64,000 nt of DNA from Krischvirus LF73P4: the sequence record OZ035795.1. One strand, written 5' to 3'. Shown here piece by piece: positions 2,345-7,983 of the stretch. The first letter of the stretch is position 1. Each line of letters begins with the position of its first letter. Both the position numbers and the translations under genes were made by a program. A model generated the notes under the pieces. That model saw only the letters and a program-made list of their open reading frames with translations, did not search any database and was not told where the DNA came from.

Positions 2345-2926
2345 ATGATTCAATGTGTATTTGCGATTGGTGACACTAAAATGTCGGATGAAAATTGGGC
2401 TTTTGGTTTTAAAGGCGGTTTACCGTGGGGTCGTCCAATCAAAAAGGACATGGAAAACTTTAAAATGCGCACTATGGGAGATGTTGATCTTGCGGCGGTT
2501 GTAATGGGACGCAATACCTTTGAAAGTCTTCCTAAAGCACTGGAAGGTCGTGTGAATGTGGTTGTTAGTACCGATACCAGTAAGCCAGCACCGAAAGCAA
2601 AAAACGGCGAACAACCTGATGTGTATACCGCGATTACTAATGATGGTGGATTGAAGGAATTATTAGAAGTCATAGAGAAATTGCAAGGTTTGGTAAGCGT
2701 TATCGGCGGACCTTCCCTGATTGAAAAAGCGGTTGACTTTGCGGACCGTATTGTGTTAACGTATGTTCAACGTTCAGGGGTCAACGATCCATTTGAATAT
2801 GATGTTGGTATCTCTAAGGAAATGATTCAGGAATTATATTTTGATTTTGCAACAAAAGAAGAACATAATTACTTCCTTGATGATTACCTGATCAGCGAAC
2901 AAATTTTAGAACGTAAGAAGGCGTAA
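2345..2926 (+). CDS. frd: dihydrofolate reductase
   Basis: 193 aa; DHFR signatures (GxGLPWG, VVMGRNTFESLP, VIGGxxL) and T4 frd position between 32 and td. Confidence 0.9.
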   Translation: MIQCVFAIGDTKMSDENWAFGFKGGLPWGRPIKKDMENFKMRTMGDVDLAAVVMGRNTFESLPKALEGRVNVVVSTDTSKPAPKAKNGEQPDVYTAITNDGGLKELLEVIEKLQGLVSVIGGPSLIEKAVDFADRIVLTYVQRSGVNDPFEYDVGISKEMIQELYFDFATKEEHNYFLDDYLISEQILERKKA

Positions 2927-2927
2927 C

Positions 2928-3020
2928 ATGAAAATTCTGACAGATTATGAGTGCAAACATTGTGGTGAATCTTTGATGTTTGCTGGTAGTCGGTGTTTAC
3001 ATTGTGGACGGGAACAATAA
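2928..3020 (+). CDS. small zinc-ribbon protein (30 aa)
   Basis: CxxC...CxxC in 30 aa; start overlaps frd stop; below the ORF-track size cut-off. Confidence 0.3.
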   Translation: MKILTDYECKHCGESLMFAGSRCLHCGREQ

Positions 3021-3289
3021 TGAAAATAACCATTATTCAATTATGGTCAGCTACCAGTGAAAACTACGCAGTAGCCGTAGATTATTACGGGTTACAATAT
3101 CTCTATGATGAAGCTAAAGCGTCATGGCTTCCAGTACAGGAAAATAGCGACATTTCAAGACCTGTTACTGTATTCGATCCGGGCGTTGTCTTTATCGATA
3201 TTGACGAGACAGTAGCAAAACTGCGTAAGAAAGCAATCAATAAGAAAAAGGTGAAGTGGGATGAAAGAATATTTGAAACTGTTGCGTGA
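3020..3289 (+). CDS. hypothetical protein
   Basis: 89 aa from internal ATG of track ORF 2993-3289; overlaps td start by 29 nt. Confidence 0.35.
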   Translation: MKITIIQLWSATSENYAVAVDYYGLQYLYDEAKASWLPVQENSDISRPVTVFDPGVVFIDIDETVAKLRKKAINKKKVKWDERIFETVA

Positions 3290-4484
3290 TGTTCTTGATA
3301 ATGGTTGGCCTCGTGAAGACCGCACGGGGGTAGGTACGCTCTCTAAATTCGGCGCAGAGATGCGAATTGATTTAAGCAAGGGTTTCCCCTTACTGACCAC
3401 TAAAAAGATGGCTACAGCCTCTGTAATTGGCGAATTGCTATGGTTTATGGAGGGATCACTTGACCGCCGTCGTTTACAGGAAATTACACGCGGTAAGTTT
3501 GACGAAGAAGCCTTCGACATTTGGCGCGGTAACTGTCTTGATATGAAAGAAAAGAATCCTTTGCGATTCAATGGTTATAATGTCGGTAATATGTATGGTA
3601 TGGCATGGCGACGCAAACCGATTCATCCACACGGTGAAATCAAAATTAAGCGCGTTAAGAGCAAATATACACATACATTTAAGCACCCGTGGGTAGAAGA
3701 CTTTACGCCAACTAACGACACAGAAGACCGTTTATGTGCTATCTGGCGTGGTATGCGTTATGAAGAGTTTGATTATATTCTGGTAGCAGACCACTGGAAG
3801 ACTCAATCTAATTTTGTTAATGATGCATATTGCTTGTGGGGATTCCAGGAATGGGTAGATGATGGTTATTTCGGTTATCTGCTTGATAATGAATATCTGG
3901 GCGGTGACATTTTAGCACCGGATACCACGATCTTTGTTAGTATGGACGTAGACACATCAAGCCCTAAAGACGATGAAGAATATGTCTATCGCCAGAAGAT
4001 CTGGGAAGACCAGTTACAAAAAGTTATTGACATGATCAAGAATGATCCATATAGTCGTCGTATTATCATTGATTCATGGAACGTACAGGAAACGCATAAT
4101 GCTGTGTTAGGTGTATGTCATCCGATGGTACAGTTTTATGTTTCCAACGACAACAAATTGAGTTGTTTATTTTTCATGCGTTCGAATGATCTCTTTTTAG
4201 GGAATCCGTTCAACGTAGCGAGCTATGCACTGTTAACGCATATCATCGCGAAGATTTGCGGGTTAGAAGTTGGCGAACTGGTTTATCAGTGTGGGGATTG
4301 CCACATTTACAAAAACCATTTTGATCAAGTTATGGAACAGTTAAGCCGTGTTCCGTTTGATAAACCAACAATTGAGTTGCCGGAATTTAAATCTTTAGAT
4401 GAGGTATTGACAAAGACTCCGAAAGACTTTAAAATTCACAACTATCAAAGCCATCCAGCAATCACCGCTCAAATGGCAGTATAA
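3261..4484 (+). CDS. td: thymidylate synthase with large internal insertion, intron-less
   Basis: 407 aa; TS signatures DRTGVGT, GFPLLTTKK, catalytic-Cys region VLGVCHPMVQFYV, FLGNPFNVASYALLTHIIA, DCHIYKNH; ~120-130 extra residues relative to T4 Td between the WRR and DPYSRRII segments. Confidence 0.9.
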   Translation: MKEYLKLLRDVLDNGWPREDRTGVGTLSKFGAEMRIDLSKGFPLLTTKKMATASVIGELLWFMEGSLDRRRLQEITRGKFDEEAFDIWRGNCLDMKEKNPLRFNGYNVGNMYGMAWRRKPIHPHGEIKIKRVKSKYTHTFKHPWVEDFTPTNDTEDRLCAIWRGMRYEEFDYILVADHWKTQSNFVNDAYCLWGFQEWVDDGYFGYLLDNEYLGGDILAPDTTIFVSMDVDTSSPKDDEEYVYRQKIWEDQLQKVIDMIKNDPYSRRIIIDSWNVQETHNAVLGVCHPMVQFYVSNDNKLSCLFFMRSNDLFLGNPFNVASYALLTHIIAKICGLEVGELVYQCGDCHIYKNHFDQVMEQLSRVPFDKPTIELPEFKSLDEVLTKTPKDFKIHNYQSHPAITAQMAV

Positions 4485-4490
4485 ACAAAT

Positions 4491-4508
4491 GCGGGGAGAA
4501 ATCCCCGC
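4491..4508 (+). repeat. GCGGGGA-GAAA-TCCCCGC hairpin (promoter-less copy of the PeSL stem-loop)
   Basis: same stem-loop as in the promoter repeats at 7093-7109, 7986-8002, 36353-36369; no T-run; lies just upstream of the ribosome-binding site of the 4521 ORF. Confidence 0.6.
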
Positions 4509-4520
4509 TAGGAGTATCAA

Positions 4521-4838
4521 ATGAAAATATGCCGCGTTGTAAACAAGTACAATAGCGATTTTGATGTTAACATTCAGCGTGGTACTATGTGGGGAAATCC
4601 ATACACCGCCAAAGAATACGGACGCGAGAAAGCTATTGCATTATACAAAGAGTGGTTGTATAATAAGATTCGAAATGGTGAGATAACACGAGCGCATTTA
4701 GAAGTATTAAGACATATGCGCTTAGGTTGTACTTGTTACCCTAAGAAATGCCACGGTGAAGTATTGGCGGATCTCGTTAATAGAGTTTTCGGCGATACTC
4801 CAGAAAATACGCTTGATATATTAAGTGAGGTAATATGA
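4521..4838 (+). CDS. DUF4326-like protein
   Basis: 105 aa; MWGNPY ... CxCxPxxCHGEVL pattern as remembered for DUF4326 family proteins. Confidence 0.4.
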   Translation: MKICRVVNKYNSDFDVNIQRGTMWGNPYTAKEYGREKAIALYKEWLYNKIRNGEITRAHLEVLRHMRLGCTCYPKKCHGEVLADLVNRVFGDTPENTLDILSEVI

Positions 4839-7078
4839 TTAAAAATGTTGTTAAGTCTTCCGGTCTGACTGTTCCGTTTGAAAAAGAAAAAGTAATGAAA
4901 ATTCTGGAAGCGGCAGCCGAAGGTCATAACGTTGATCCATATGAATTGTTTGATATGGTTGAACCACTTCTGACAGAAGGTATGTCTACCAATGATATCC
5001 AGAAAGTATTGATTAAGGTCGCCGCAGATAACATCACGGTAGAAACTCCTGATTATCAATATGTAGCAAGTAACCTTGCAATGTTCGCGCTTCGCAAATC
5101 AGTATACGGTCAATTCCAACCGATTGATTTTTACAGCCATATTGAGCGTAATATTGCAACCGGAAAATATGATCGCGAAATTCTGCAAAAATATTCCCGT
5201 GAAGAAGTGGAATATCTGGAGAAATTCATCGACCATAAACTTGATTTTAAAATGACCTATGCTGGTGCGATGCAGTTAAAAGAGAAATATCTTGTTCAAG
5301 ATCGCAGCACCAAGAAAATCATCGAAACACCGCAATTTGCGTATATGCTGATCGGTATGTGCTTGCATCAAGAAGAGACAGAAAATCGACTTGAACATGT
5401 GATTGATTTTTATAATGCGGTTGCGAATAAGCAAATCTCTCTGCCTACTCCGATTATGGCAGGTGTGCGTACCCCAACACGCCAATTTAGTTCGTGTGTG
5501 GTGATTGAAAGTGATGACTCATTGCAGGGTATTAATGAAACCGCAAATGCAATCATCAAGTATATTAGCAAGCGTGCTGGTATCGGTATCAACGCTGGCA
5601 TGATTCGCGCGGAAGGATCTAAGATCGGGCATGGTGAAGTTCGTCATACTGGAGTTATCCCATTCTGGAAACATTTTCAGACTGCCGTTAAGTCATGCTC
5701 ACAAGGCGGTATTCGTGGCGGGGCAGCGACACTCTATTACCCAATGTGGCATTTAGAGTTTGAAAGTCTGATTGTGTTAAAGAACAATAAGGGCGTGGAA
5801 GATAACCGCATTCGTCATCTTGATTACGGCGTACAGATTAATAACCTGATGGTAGAGCGATTCCTTAAACGGGATTACATTACTCTGTTTAGTCCAGATG
5901 TTGCGGGTGGCTTGTTGTGGGATCTGTACTTCCGAGACGAGGAAGGTTTCCGCCAACTTTACGAAAAACTGGAAAAAGATCCGAGTGTTCGTAAAACTCG
6001 TGTTAAAGCCGAAGACCTGTTTTTAGCGGTGGCAATTGAACGTTTTAACACTGGTCGAATCTACCCAACGTTCACAGACAACATGAACAATCACGGGGCG
6101 TTTATTCGTAATGTAGCACCGATTAAACAATCTAACCTGTGTTGTGAAATTGCACTGCCTACTAAACCGATGGGTCGTGATGATTCAGAGATCAGCCTAT
6201 GCACTTTGGCAGCATATGTTTTAGGTAATTTCGATATCGAAAACATGGAAGAAGTAGAACGCATTGCTATGGTTATGGTGCGTGCACTTGACAACCTGTT
6301 AGATTATCAGGATTATCCTGTAGAACAAGCTCTGACAGCAAAAAAACGTCGCTCTCTGGGCGTTGGTGTTACTAACTTTGCATCATATCTCGCGGATAAT
6401 TTCTTCACATATGAAGACGCTAACGAGTTTACGCATAAAACGTTTGAACGCTTGCAATATGCTCTGATTAAGGCTAGTGTGCAACTCGCAAAAGAGAAGG
6501 GTGCTTGCGAACTGATGCACGAAACACGCTACGGTCGCGGTGAACTTCCTATCGACTGGTACAAAAAGACAGTAGATGAACTGGTTGATCCGGTGTATGA
6601 GATGGATTGGGAAGAACTGCGCGAAGACCTGAAAAAATATGGCATTCGTAACAGTACGCTTTCGGCTCTGATGCCTTGTGAGTCGTCTTCTCAGGTATCT
6701 AACAGCACAAACGGTATTGAACCGCCTCGCGGGATTGTATCGGTTAAAGGATCGAAAGAAGGGCAATTTAATCAGGTTATTCCGAACGTAGAGAATAATG
6801 CTGATGTTATTGACCTGCTTTGGACACTGATCAAGAAAGGTAACAAGCCTTATCTGACACTTGCAGCGATCATGCAGAAGTTTGTAGACCAGGCGATTAG
6901 TTCCAACACATCCTACGATCCAAGCACTTATAAGACTGGTAAAGTCGATATTGCTGATGTGTTAGATGATATGTTGTTCGCTCAACATTACGGTCTGAAA
7001 ACCCTGTATTATGCGAACGTTCGCGACGGTGCAGATGGTACGGAAGACGCTAGCGAGTGTTCATCCTGTAAGCTGTAA
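4835..7078 (+). CDS. nrdA: aerobic ribonucleotide reductase large subunit
   Basis: 747 aa; N-terminal ATP-cone, class I RNR active-site region (NLCCEI, PCESSS), C-terminal CxxC tail; T4 order td-nrdA-nrdB. Confidence 0.95.
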   Translation: MIKNVVKSSGLTVPFEKEKVMKILEAAAEGHNVDPYELFDMVEPLLTEGMSTNDIQKVLIKVAADNITVETPDYQYVASNLAMFALRKSVYGQFQPIDFYSHIERNIATGKYDREILQKYSREEVEYLEKFIDHKLDFKMTYAGAMQLKEKYLVQDRSTKKIIETPQFAYMLIGMCLHQEETENRLEHVIDFYNAVANKQISLPTPIMAGVRTPTRQFSSCVVIESDDSLQGINETANAIIKYISKRAGIGINAGMIRAEGSKIGHGEVRHTGVIPFWKHFQTAVKSCSQGGIRGGAATLYYPMWHLEFESLIVLKNNKGVEDNRIRHLDYGVQINNLMVERFLKRDYITLFSPDVAGGLLWDLYFRDEEGFRQLYEKLEKDPSVRKTRVKAEDLFLAVAIERFNTGRIYPTFTDNMNNHGAFIRNVAPIKQSNLCCEIALPTKPMGRDDSEISLCTLAAYVLGNFDIENMEEVERIAMVMVRALDNLLDYQDYPVEQALTAKKRRSLGVGVTNFASYLADNFFTYEDANEFTHKTFERLQYALIKASVQLAKEKGACELMHETRYGRGELPIDWYKKTVDELVDPVYEMDWEELREDLKKYGIRNSTLSALMPCESSSQVSNSTNGIEPPRGIVSVKGSKEGQFNQVIPNVENNADVIDLLWTLIKKGNKPYLTLAAIMQKFVDQAISSNTSYDPSTYKTGKVDIADVLDDMLFAQHYGLKTLYYANVRDGADGTEDASECSSCKL

Positions 7079-7086
7079 AATAACTG

Positions 7087-7115
7087 TTGACGCGGGGAGA
7101 AATCCCCGCTATAAT
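7087..7115 (+). promoter_or_regulatory. PeSL-type promoter copy A (TTGACG-17-TATAAT, hairpin in spacer)
   Basis: TTGACG 7087-7092; spacer CGGGGAGAAATCCCCGC is a perfect hairpin; TATAAT 7110-7115; 32-nt identity with copy at 7977-8008. Confidence 0.7.
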
Positions 7116-7133
7116 GTGAGGTGAATTGTAAGA

Positions 7134-7983
7134 ATGAATTATTACAATGAGTGGGATAAAGGCGCGGCTAACTGGTTACGTGAACTTATAGCAAACAAAT
7201 TAATTCCTTATGGGTATGTCGATGAAAGATCAATTACAGAAGTCACCCCTAGAGATCTGGAAGGATTTACACAATGTCACTTCTTCGCGGGGATTGGGGG
7301 GTGGTCAAGAGCATTGCAACTCGCTGGAGTACCAGAAACAACAAGGCTATGGGCCGGATCGCCACCATGTCAACCATTTTCAAGAGCCGGAAAGCAAAAA
7401 GGAAAGTTCGACGAAAGACACCTTGCACCGACATTTCTTAAACTCGTGTCAGCGTGCAAACCTCCAATGCTCTTTGGGGAACAGGTTGCAAAAGCTATCG
7501 AAACCGGGTGGTTGGATGATCTTCACGAGGAATTGGAAAGAGAAGGTTACAGTGTCGGGGCTGCGGTATTATCATGTGATATCGTCGGTGCGCCGCACAA
7601 GCGGGACAGACTTTTCTTCGGGGCTATTAACGAGTTGGCAAACACCTACTGTAACGAATATATCAGCAAGATCGCCGGGCAATGCAACGGAGAATGGAAG
7701 CGAGACTTGCAACGGGGAGGAAATCACTAGCGCCGGGAAATTTATCAGAACAAGTGAAGATGTATTACGGTTTTGGGACAGTGGAACAGAGTATCTATGC
7801 AGAGACGGGAAAAAACGAATTGTTGAACCCACGATTCCCTTGTTGGCTGATGGGGTATCCTCAACAATGGGACGATTGCGCGGTTATGGCAATGCGATAG
7901 TTCCTCAAGTCGGAGCACTTTTTATAGAAAGTTTTGTAGGTGCTTACATTGATGCTTGCGATGGATTGTCAAATAGCTGTTGA
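7134..7983 (+). pseudogene. disrupted DNA (cytosine-5)-methyltransferase (motifs spread over three frames)
   Basis: frame of 7134: FAGIGGW (motif I), PPCQPFS (IV), FGEQV (VI-like), HKRDRLFFG (VIII), stop at 7730; frame of 7682: NPRFPCWLMGYP (motif IX-like), stop at 7900; frame ending 7983: RLRGYGNAIVPQV (motif X). At least two frame changes are needed for a full-length enzyme. Confidence 0.7.

What the first reader, a model, noticed from the sequence alone, without database searches (positions are those of the whole stretch)
3615..4010. Thymidylate synthase carries a ~120-130 aa in-frame insertion and has no intron
Compared with T4 Td as recalled (286 aa), this Td (407 aa) has an extra segment inserted after the conserved ...MYGMAWRR and before ...LQKVIDMIKNDPYSRRIIIDSWN. 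This is the variable small-domain position where some bacterial enzymes also carry insertions. The insert has no intein boundary residues and no homing-endonuclease motifs, and the gene lacks the group I intron found in T4 td.
Basis: partly seen in the sequence, partly recalled or inferred. Interest (0 to 1): 0.4.

Follow-up and report, generated by a model that had tools for sequence, protein, structure and literature searches.

The report
Dead homing-endonuclease domain inside thymidylate synthase
The phage's thymidylate synthase carries, in one surface loop, a folded 131-residue domain that is the stripped-down, inactivated remnant of a homing-endonuclease-like module, which many other phages carry full-length and in frame at the same spot in the enzyme.

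Summary
The td ORF (3261-4484, 407 aa) is a complete ThyA with one block of 131 extra residues (aa 119-249, nt 3615-4007) between the YG.xWR motif and the DQ helix. There is no intron and no intein. The window is a Krischvirus (RB49/JSE type), and all 58 Krischvirus records carry the insert.

Two parts of the interpretation need correcting. The site is not the Lactobacillus-type small-domain position; it is the next loop downstream. The insert is also not an anonymous domain. A profile built from longer inserts (170-270 aa) at the same ThyA site scores it at 70 bits. Those longer inserts match phage "HNH endonuclease" families, ICP1 gp59 (the IPA-HNH homing-endonuclease family) and free-standing genes next to nrd genes.

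The Krischvirus copy keeps the hydrophobic core of the module. It has lost the N-terminal submodule, the C-terminal DNA-binding part, the invariant D-K-D/Y/C/N signature and the basic charge (pI 4.75). AlphaFold models it confidently as a knob on a two-stranded stalk, and dN/dS is about 0.2.

My reading is a nuclease-dead, retained relic on an active enzyme. In-frame modules of this kind in ThyA are common and, as far as I could find, undescribed.

The parts
3261..4484 (+). td (thyA) gene, 407 codons plus stop, uninterrupted
   Evidence: The catalytic set is intact in the alignment: R21, E58, W88, R266/R267, C286-H287, R307-S308-D310, N318, H348-Y350.
3261..3614 (+). N-terminal ThyA core (aa 1-118), ending in MYGMAWRR
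   Evidence: Aligns to PDB ThyA residues 3-90; motif coordinates.
3615..4007 (+). The insert, aa 119-249 (131 aa), overall pI 4.75
   Evidence: Folds alone with pLDDT 93 and pTM 0.85.
3612..3650 (+). Stalk strand 1 (aa 118-130) within a basic linker (aa 119-152, pI 9.9)
   Evidence: DSSP strand E118-130 in the AlphaFold model; charge.
3654..3992 (+). Region homologous to the central part of the gp59-type (IPA-HNH) module (aa 132-244; profile positions 78-199 of 250)
3885..3893 (+). D209-N210-E211, the degenerate form of the family's invariant D-K-D triplet
   Evidence: In the family, D/K/D are 100% conserved in free-standing members and 97-99% in long ThyA inserts. Here K is N and the second D is E. 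The family Tyr is L218, the Cys is T223, and the helix Asn is Asp.
3981..4010 (+). Stalk strand 2 (aa 241-250, YVYRQKIWED), predicted to pair with strand 1 and lead into the DQ helix
   Evidence: DSSP strand E241-250. The V.RP.I..DQ motif is conserved across all insert-bearing ThyA.
4008..4481 (+). C-terminal ThyA core (aa 250-407) with catalytic Cys286 (nt 4116-4118)
   Evidence: Aligns to E. coli ThyA 110-264. Foldseek TM-score 0.93 (normalised to the target) against E. coli ThyA.

Best explanation
The Krischvirus Td is an ordinary, presumably active, dimeric ThyA. Its surface loop between the YG.xWR motif and the DQ helix holds a fossil of a homing-endonuclease-like gene inserted in frame. 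The ancestor was a complete module of about 250 aa of the ICP1-gp59 type (the 'IPA-HNH' family): an N-terminal beta-hairpin submodule, a core with the motifs W..M..RCY / VC.RW..F..F..D / LDKD..Y..TC.F...N, and a C-terminal helix-turn-helix (HTH), NUMOD-like or AP2 DNA-binding part. This module still sits, apparently intact, at the same loop in many other phage ThyA proteins. It is not spliced out at RNA or protein level. It is translated as part of the enzyme and projects from it on a two-stranded beta stalk. In the lineage leading to Krischvirus the module was cut down to its central ~110 residues, lost every signature polar/Cys residue and its DNA-binding parts, and became acidic. It can therefore no longer bind or cut DNA, or home. 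What remains is a well-folded knob kept under purifying selection, most likely because an unfolded or partly deleted insert in this loop would damage an enzyme the phage needs. Shown: the insertion, its homology, the lost residues, the fold prediction, the selection, and the nesting within a long-insert clade. Inferred: the direction of change (long to short), absence of nuclease activity, and the present role as a passive structural passenger.
For: The single 131-aa block sits at one loop. A profile of 19 long inserts scores it at 70 bits. Long inserts hit phrog_2081/953/374/3377 'HNH endonuclease' at E 1e-14 to 1e-46, and ICP1 gp59 scores 77 bits against the same profile. Free-standing homologues sit next to nrd genes and carry PF22083 (I-HmuI NUMOD-like) or AP2 domains at the C-terminus; one ThyA insert (P0045) contains PF22083 above the gathering score. 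The family signature is conserved 88-100% in 40 free-standing proteins and 75 ThyA inserts but replaced in the window. Long inserts mostly have pI 8-9.5, against 4.75 here and 4.05 for the globular part. AlphaFold gives pLDDT 96 and pTM 0.93 for the whole protein and 93/0.85 for the insert alone. Structural neighbours in BFVD are insert-bearing phage ThyA and homing-endonuclease-like proteins. dN/dS in the insert is 0.08-0.28 across 8 Krischvirus genes, mostly 0.15-0.25. In an NJ tree of 196 ThyA cores the window lies inside a 26-member clade in which every member carries an insert; most of the other members listed have much longer inserts. A 51%-identical Td with the same short insert sits in a distant T4-like contig with the same frd-td-DUF4326-nrdA synteny. 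GC content of the insert equals that of the flanks.
Confidence: 0.75

Rival explanations
1. The origin is the same, but the relic has been exapted. On this view the acidic knob is a functional surface, for example for docking Td into the T4-type dNTP-synthesising complex, binding another phage or host protein, or regulating the enzyme.
For: Purifying selection acts on the insert (dN/dS mostly 0.15-0.25). The insert is retained in all 58 Krischvirus records and in relatives down to 51% identity. The orientation to the core is confidently predicted as fixed (pTM 0.93). The charge has shifted markedly to pI about 4.
Against: The constraint is about ten-fold weaker than on the core. The residues conserved among the short inserts are mostly hydrophobic-core positions shared with the parent module. 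A 4-codon indel is tolerated within the genus. No partner or phenotype is known.
Confidence: 0.2
2. The insert is still an active mobile element, a homing endonuclease expressed as part of Td.
For: It is homologous to homing-endonuclease-like genes. A sharply bounded divergent patch starts about 20 nt downstream of the insert, which resembles a co-conversion tract.
Against: All family-invariant polar/Cys residues are replaced, and the DNA-binding and N-terminal submodules are missing. The domain is acidic. It is fixed in every Krischvirus, so there are no empty sites to home into. No alternative-frame ORF longer than 41 aa is present on the + strand.
Confidence: 0.02
3. The insert is removed before the enzyme functions, either as an unusual intein or as an intron that happens to be open in frame.
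For: None beyond the precedent that T4 td has an intron and phage ThyX genes carry inteins.
Against: There is no Hint/intein Pfam hit. The boundary residues are K119/P120 and E249|D250, not Cys/Ser ... His-Asn|Cys/Ser/Thr. There is no Rfam intron hit. Selection acts at the protein level. The insert is predicted to fold as a domain joined to the core by a beta ribbon.
Confidence: 0.01
4. It is just an ordinary ThyA small-domain length variant like that of Lactobacillus casei or S. aureus.
For: ThyA loops in this region vary in length (5-34 residues between WR and DQ among 92 insert-less homologues).
Against: The loop is a different one from the Gram-positive small domain. The length distribution is bimodal, with nothing between 34 and 127 residues. 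The insert has significant homology to a free-standing protein family.
Confidence: 0.02

Closest known systems
IPA-HNH homing endonuclease genes (ICP1 gp59 type; Barth et al. 2023, PMC10448857), equivalent to PHROG 2081/953/374 'HNH endonuclease'
   Same: The sequence family is the same. gp59 scores 77 bits against the ThyA-insert profile, with the same GVGY.G, W..ML.RCY, VC.EW and LDKD motifs. Free-standing members sit beside nrd, polymerase and exonuclease genes and end in AP2 or NUMOD-like DNA-binding domains.
   Different: Those are separate genes. Here the module is inside another protein's reading frame and, in Krischvirus, is reduced to its central third with every signature residue lost. 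The paper never mentions thymidylate synthase and states that T4 lacks this family.
Long in-frame modules in other phage ThyA proteins (e.g. Klebsiella phages phiKp_21/KP13-7, Escherichia phage UE-S1, Vibrio phage D181, Bacillus phages Kioshi and 015DV002)
   Same: They occupy the same insertion loop, and the ThyA sequence resumes at E. coli residues ~107-110 in nearly all of 75 clusters. They share the same stalk motifs (..IKRK.. and V.RP.I..DQ) and the same module core.
   Different: They are 170-270 aa, mostly basic, and have an intact D-K-D/Y/C/N signature plus HTH or NUMOD-like parts. The window's copy is a derived, shortened, dead version.
ShiLan domain in actinobacteriophage DNA methylase (Arsenault et al. 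2025, PMC11855218)
   Same: It is a homing-type insertion in a phage enzyme gene that is neither intron nor intein and is read through in frame, looping out of the host protein.
   Different: In ShiLan the HNH endonuclease is encoded out of frame within the insertion. Here the module is in the host's own frame and no alternative-frame ORF exists.
T4 td group I intron with I-TevI
   Same: The host gene is the same, and both are cases of a homing-endonuclease element invading td.
   Different: The T4 element is an RNA-spliced intron at another site, carrying a GIY-YIG enzyme. The window has no intron, and its element is translated.
Small-domain insert of Gram-positive ThyA and the eukaryotic insert
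   Same: These are length variations on the same face of ThyA.
   Different: The Gram-positive insert is upstream of YG.xWR. The eukaryotic insert is, from my recollection of the human sequence, at about this loop but only ~12 residues long. Neither is related to the module.

Membership tests
Thymidylate synthase ThyA (PF00303) | Full-length match to the family profile | tested here: met
   PF00303 positions 1-266 of 266, E 7.5e-84, 281 bits against a cut-off of 24.3; phrog_160 at E 5e-100.
Thymidylate synthase ThyA (PF00303) | Catalytic Cys and dUMP-binding residues (E. coli C146, R21, R126'/R127', R166, S167, D169, N177, H207, Y209, E58) | tested here: met
   C286, R21, R266/R267, R307, S308, D310, N318, H348, Y350 and E58 are all present; most are invariant across the 31- and 50-sequence alignments and the rest are at least 90% conserved.
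Thymidylate synthase ThyA (PF00303) | ThyA fold | tested here: met
   The AlphaFold model matches E. coli ThyA structures with a TM-score of 0.93 normalised to the target.
Thymidylate synthase ThyA (PF00303) | dUMP to dTMP catalytic activity | not testable with these tools
   Requires an enzyme assay or complementation of an E. coli thyA mutant.
gp59-type IPA-HNH homing-endonuclease module | Significant sequence homology to the module profile | tested here: met
   70 bits, E 7e-24, over aa 132-244. It is the only hit in the window's six-frame translation.
gp59-type IPA-HNH homing-endonuclease module | Invariant signature residues R-C-Y, D-K-D, Tyr, Cys and Asn (the presumed active or metal site) | tested here: not met
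   The Cys of RCY is deleted; DKD is DNE; Tyr is Leu; Cys is Thr; Asn is Asp.
gp59-type IPA-HNH homing-endonuclease module | N-terminal beta-hairpin submodule (F..TG, GVGY.G) and C-terminal DNA-binding domain (AP2 / NUMOD-like / HTH) | tested here: not met
   Profile positions 1-77 and 200-250 have no counterpart in the window. No AP2, NUMOD or HTH hit.
gp59-type IPA-HNH homing-endonuclease module | His-Me finger (HNH) fold | tested here: inconclusive
gp59-type IPA-HNH homing-endonuclease module | Site-specific DNA cleavage and homing | not testable with these tools
   I found no biochemical data for any member of the family.
Intein | Hint splicing domain, and Cys/Ser at the first residue with His-Asn followed by Cys/Ser/Thr at the C-terminal junction | tested here: not met
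   No Hint or intein Pfam hit even at E<=10. The junction residues are R118|K119 and E249|D250.
Group I intron (as in T4 td) | Intron RNA structure interrupting the reading frame | tested here: not met
   The ORF is continuous. No Rfam match in 2500-7500 at E<=1 other than two chance hits outside td.
Gram-positive ThyA small-domain insert | Extra ~50 residues between IWDEW and LGPVYG, i.e. upstream of the WR motif | tested here: not met
   In S. aureus ThyA (4dq1) the WR-to-DQ distance is about 10 residues and the extra residues lie at positions 95-157. The window's extra block lies after WR.
ShiLan-type insertion (out-of-frame HNH inside a read-through insertion) | A homing-endonuclease ORF in another frame of the insertion | tested here: not met
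   The alternative-frame ORFs overlapping 3615-4010 are at most 41 aa on the + strand and at most 70 aa on the - strand, where the longest one mostly lies outside the insert.

The most novel reading that the evidence does not exclude
The full-length relatives of this insert may be an unrecognised class of mobile element: a gp59-type homing endonuclease that lives in frame and unspliced inside a surface loop of ThyA. On this reading it is expressed as part of the enzyme, possibly uses the obligate ThyA dimer to bring two nuclease modules together, and spreads to (or excludes) insert-less thyA alleles of co-infecting phages. The Krischvirus domain would be its fossil, showing the end point of the life cycle when precise excision is not available.
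Probability: 0.35. Interest if true: 0.8.

Novelty: new variant of a known kind. Interest (0 to 1): 0.55.

Why it matters
Homing endonuclease genes are thought to survive inside essential genes only when an intron or intein removes them, or else to sit between genes. Here a module of a homing-endonuclease-like family is simply translated as a guest domain in a tolerant loop of a conserved enzyme. This is not a one-off: at least 75 protein clusters (at 50% identity) of phage ThyA carry it at the same loop. Related Enterococcus phages differ by its presence at a neighbouring site, with near-identical flanks. The Krischvirus copy shows what happens afterwards. The nuclease decays, but the fold is kept under selection for a long time. 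That gives a concrete, clonable system (coliphages RB49 and JSE) for asking how enzymes tolerate and domesticate large insertions. It also flags an annotation problem, because such ThyA proteins are variously labelled 'HNH endonuclease', 'hypothetical protein' or plain 'thymidylate synthase'.

Tried and rejected
- The insert alone against Pfam, PHROGs and NCBIfam gave nothing.
- A word-indexed homology search with the insert alone gave nothing, an index limitation. The same search with the insert alignment gave only 16 hits. The exhaustive profile search was needed.
- A PDB sequence search with the insert profile gave no hit at E<=10.
- hhalign of the insert profile against a canonical HNH-3 protein (ICP1 gp80) was not significant. 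ICP1 gp115 and gp116 do not match the module.
- The Foldseek PDB search with the whole model returned only thymidylate synthases and told me nothing about the insert. The afdb50 library was unavailable.
- A search for flanking direct or inverted repeats, or a hidden alternative-frame ORF, found nothing meaningful.
- The window holds no other copy of the module.
- Literature searches for a description of the ThyA insert found none. The thymidylate synthase inteins reported in actinophages are listed under InterPro IPR003669, which I recall as the ThyX family, and look unrelated. F-CphI uses an Endo VII catalytic motif and looks like a different family; I did not compare the sequences.
I therefore could not measure where the knob sits relative to the active site or the dimer interface.

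Full report
**What the window is and what is at the site.** The region reads frd (2345-2926, DHFR_1), a small ORF (2993-3289), td (3261-4484), a DUF4326 ORF (4521-4838) and nrdA (4835-7078). The td DNA is 88-98% identical over its full length to 58 Krischvirus records (RB49, Phi1, JSE, GEC-3S and others), so the window is a T4-type coliphage of that genus.

The 407-aa product matches Pfam Thymidylat_synt from profile position 1 to 266. Solved ThyA chains align to it in two blocks, residues 1-88 and 250-407, with residue 250 equal to E. coli residue 110. In multiple alignments, 131 residues (K119-E249) separate the R of MYGMAWRR from the D of DQLQ, where E. coli has 9.

The reading frame is uninterrupted and Rfam finds no intron. 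There is no intein domain, and the junction residues are not those of an intein. GC content does not differ from the flanks.

**Position.** In S. aureus ThyA the residues following WR run straight into DQ ('RDWVDKDGNHFDQL'), and the Gram-positive extra segment lies before that, between chain residues 95 and 157. The window's insert is after WR. It is therefore not the Lactobacillus-type small-domain site but the next loop. Among 92 insert-less homologues this loop holds 5-34 residues; among 36 others it holds 127-274, with nothing in between.

**What the insert is.** The insert alone hits nothing in Pfam, PHROGs or NCBIfam. A search with the whole protein, however, found many ThyA proteins of 400-553 aa with an insert at the same loop. 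The long inserts (170-270 aa) share three parts:
- a beta-hairpin part ('G.Y.V.GK ... F..TGS', 'GVGYLG');
- a core reading 'LY..W..M..RCY ... V.VC.RW..F.NF..D ... LDKDYYG..YS..TC.F...N';
- often a helix-turn-helix.

They match phrog_2081, 953, 374 and 3377 ('HNH endonuclease') at E 1e-14 to 1e-46. One of them (P0045) contains Pfam I-HmuI_NUMOD-like above the gathering score.

A profile built only from 19 long inserts scores the window's insert at 70 bits (E 7e-24). It aligns insert residues 14-126 to profile positions 78-199 of 250, which is the central part only. Plain tblastn with the window's insert also reaches jumbo-phage ThyA proteins (E 5e-12) and the ThyA of Vibrio phage D181 (E 1e-6). 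That D181 protein is a 477-aa ThyA with an insert, but the record labels it 'HNH endonuclease'.

tblastn with a long insert finds 1,823 phage records. Most are free-standing genes annotated as HNH (homing) endonuclease that lie next to nrd, exonuclease or polymerase genes. One example is Bacillus phage SPG24 gp030, 248 aa, between nrdB and a thioredoxin gene; it covers the whole length of a long insert. Free-standing homologues end in AP2 or NUMOD-like domains.

ICP1 gp59 is one of the founding members of the 'IPA-HNH' homing-endonuclease family defined by Barth et al. 2023 (PMC10448857). It scores 77 bits against my ThyA-insert profile, whereas gp80 (HNH-3) and gp115/116 do not match.

An exhaustive profile search of 1.84 billion cluster representatives gives 25,782 hits at E<=1e-3 and 6,102 at E<=1e-10. 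Of the top 147, 75 are ThyA proteins carrying the module, and in nearly all of them ThyA resumes at E. coli residues 107-110. The rest are free-standing proteins of 169-300 aa or proteins with two tandem modules.

**State of the Krischvirus copy.** I aligned 40 free-standing members, 75 ThyA inserts and 7 Krischvirus-like inserts to the profile. The family-invariant positions are W, R-C-Y, W, F, D, D-K-D, Y, C and N, conserved 88-100% in both the free-standing and the long ThyA-embedded groups.

The window keeps the hydrophobic and structural positions (W162, W179, F185, L, G, F, W, Y, L). The signature positions have changed: the RCY Cys is deleted, DKD has become D209-N210-E211, Tyr has become L218, Cys has become T223, and Asn has become Asp. 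The N-terminal submodule and the C-terminal DNA-binding part are absent.

Long inserts are mostly basic (pI 8-9.5). The window's insert has pI 4.75, and its globular part has 5 K/R against 17 D/E (pI 4.05). It can hardly still bind or cut DNA.

**Fold and selection.** AlphaFold with a 50-sequence alignment gives pLDDT 96 and pTM 0.93 for the whole protein. Strands 118-130 and 241-250 are predicted to form a two-stranded stalk that carries a helix-rich knob (helices 153-168, 177-189 and 195-200; hairpin 206-209/224-227). The insert alone folds at pLDDT 93. Its nearest predicted viral structures are 491- and 564-aa phage thymidylate synthases and small homing-endonuclease-like proteins. The core superposes on E. 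coli ThyA with TM 0.93, and all catalytic residues are present.

Across eight Krischvirus td genes the insert has dN/dS of 0.08-0.28, mostly 0.15-0.25, against 0.01-0.03 for the core within the RB49 type. The insert is constrained, though less so than the enzyme.

**History.** In an NJ tree of 196 ThyA cores (104 with an insert, 92 without), presence of the insert needs 9 changes under parsimony, against about 66 when labels are shuffled. It is therefore mostly inherited vertically, but it is not monophyletic. The window lies inside a 26-member clade in which every member carries an insert, and most of the other members listed have much longer inserts, so the short form looks derived by reduction. 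Sampling is biased, so these numbers are indicative only.

A Td only 51% identical, with the same short insert, lies in a 169-kb T4-like metagenomic contig with the order gp32 ... frd-td-DUF4326-nrdA-nrdB. The relic is therefore old.

Direct evidence that the module moves comes from two Enterococcus Schiekvirus phages. The thyA of vB_EfaM_A2 encodes 491 aa with an intact module, while the thyA of EFP01 encodes 319 aa without it. The flanks are nearly identical, and a replaced patch surrounds the insertion. There, the module sits just upstream of the LGKAYG motif, a neighbouring but different site. Bacillus phage Kioshi carries a module in a divergent ThyA-like gene whose nearest core relatives (Acinetobacter phages Ab5/Ab7, 55% identity) lack it.

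**Interpretation.** The best-supported reading is a nuclease-dead, DNA-binding-dead fossil of an in-frame gp59-type module on an otherwise normal ThyA. It is most likely retained because the loop must stay well folded. An exapted role for the acidic knob cannot be excluded from sequence alone. Active mobility, splicing and an 'ordinary small-domain variant' are all contradicted by the tests above.

The closest published parallel for a non-intron, non-intein homing insertion read through in frame is the ShiLan domain of actinophage methylases (PMC11855218). There, however, the endonuclease is out of frame, and no such ORF exists here. I found no paper describing the ThyA insert, in Krischvirus or elsewhere.

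**Verdict.** The feature is a new variant of a known kind: a homing-endonuclease-derived domain carried in frame in an enzyme. For this window it is a relic, which lowers the interest. The widespread full-length versions it points to raise it.

Noticed in passing
window 4029-4328: There is a sharply bounded divergent patch inside td. The window (like KFS-EC and the JSE type) differs from RB49-type phages at about 89 of 300 nt here, while the DNA on both sides (3261-4028 and 4329-4484) is nearly identical. The patch covers the catalytic Cys286 to H348 region and starts about 20 nt after the insert. It looks like a recombination or gene-conversion tract from an unknown relative (aa identity 76% to RB49, 72% to P0003).
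   Followed up: partly
window 3741-3788: A 4-codon indel (SEYN) with a cluster of substitutions lies inside the insert. RB49, KFS-EC, SFHK24, ECD7 and Brandy have it; the window, G2248 and kvi lack it. Its distribution does not follow that of the 4029-4328 patch, so td is mosaic within the genus.
   Followed up: partly
window 4521-4838: A 105-aa DUF4326 ORF (E 7.5e-23) lies between td and nrdA. RB49 has only a 68-nt gap at that position, but a distant T4-like contig (L013) has the same td-DUF4326-nrdA order, so RB49 probably lost it.
   Followed up: partly
window 2993-3289: A 98-aa ORF with no family match overlaps the td start by 29 nt. The same overlap is annotated in RB49 (ORF236c) and other Krischvirus records.
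   Followed up: no
L010:1584-3059 vs L011:2090-3049: The thyA of Enterococcus phage vB_EfaM_A2 (491 aa) carries an intact module just upstream of the LGKAYG motif. The syntenic EFP01 thyA (319 aa) lacks it, and the flanks are nearly identical. This is a presence/absence polymorphism at a second site in the ThyA family, with a replaced patch around it.
   Followed up: partly
L012:2138-3571 (Vibrio phage D181); also LC768484 phiKp_21 and OP557969 ph0011: ThyA proteins with the module are annotated as 'HNH endonuclease' or 'hypothetical protein' in public records. The label depends on which half of the protein the annotation pipeline picks up.
   Followed up: yes
P0133, P0136-P0138, P0146, P0155, P0172 and others: Many non-ThyA proteins of 400-720 aa contain two tandem copies of the module. 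This would fit a module that works as a dimer.
   Followed up: no
L002:2054-3700 (Bacillus phage Kioshi); L010/L011: These insert-bearing 'thymidylate synthases' are divergent ThyA-family members whose catalytic Cys sits in 'ECAW' or 'PCVWATHW' rather than 'PCH'. They may be another pyrimidine-modifying enzyme of the family rather than a true thymidylate synthase.
   Followed up: no
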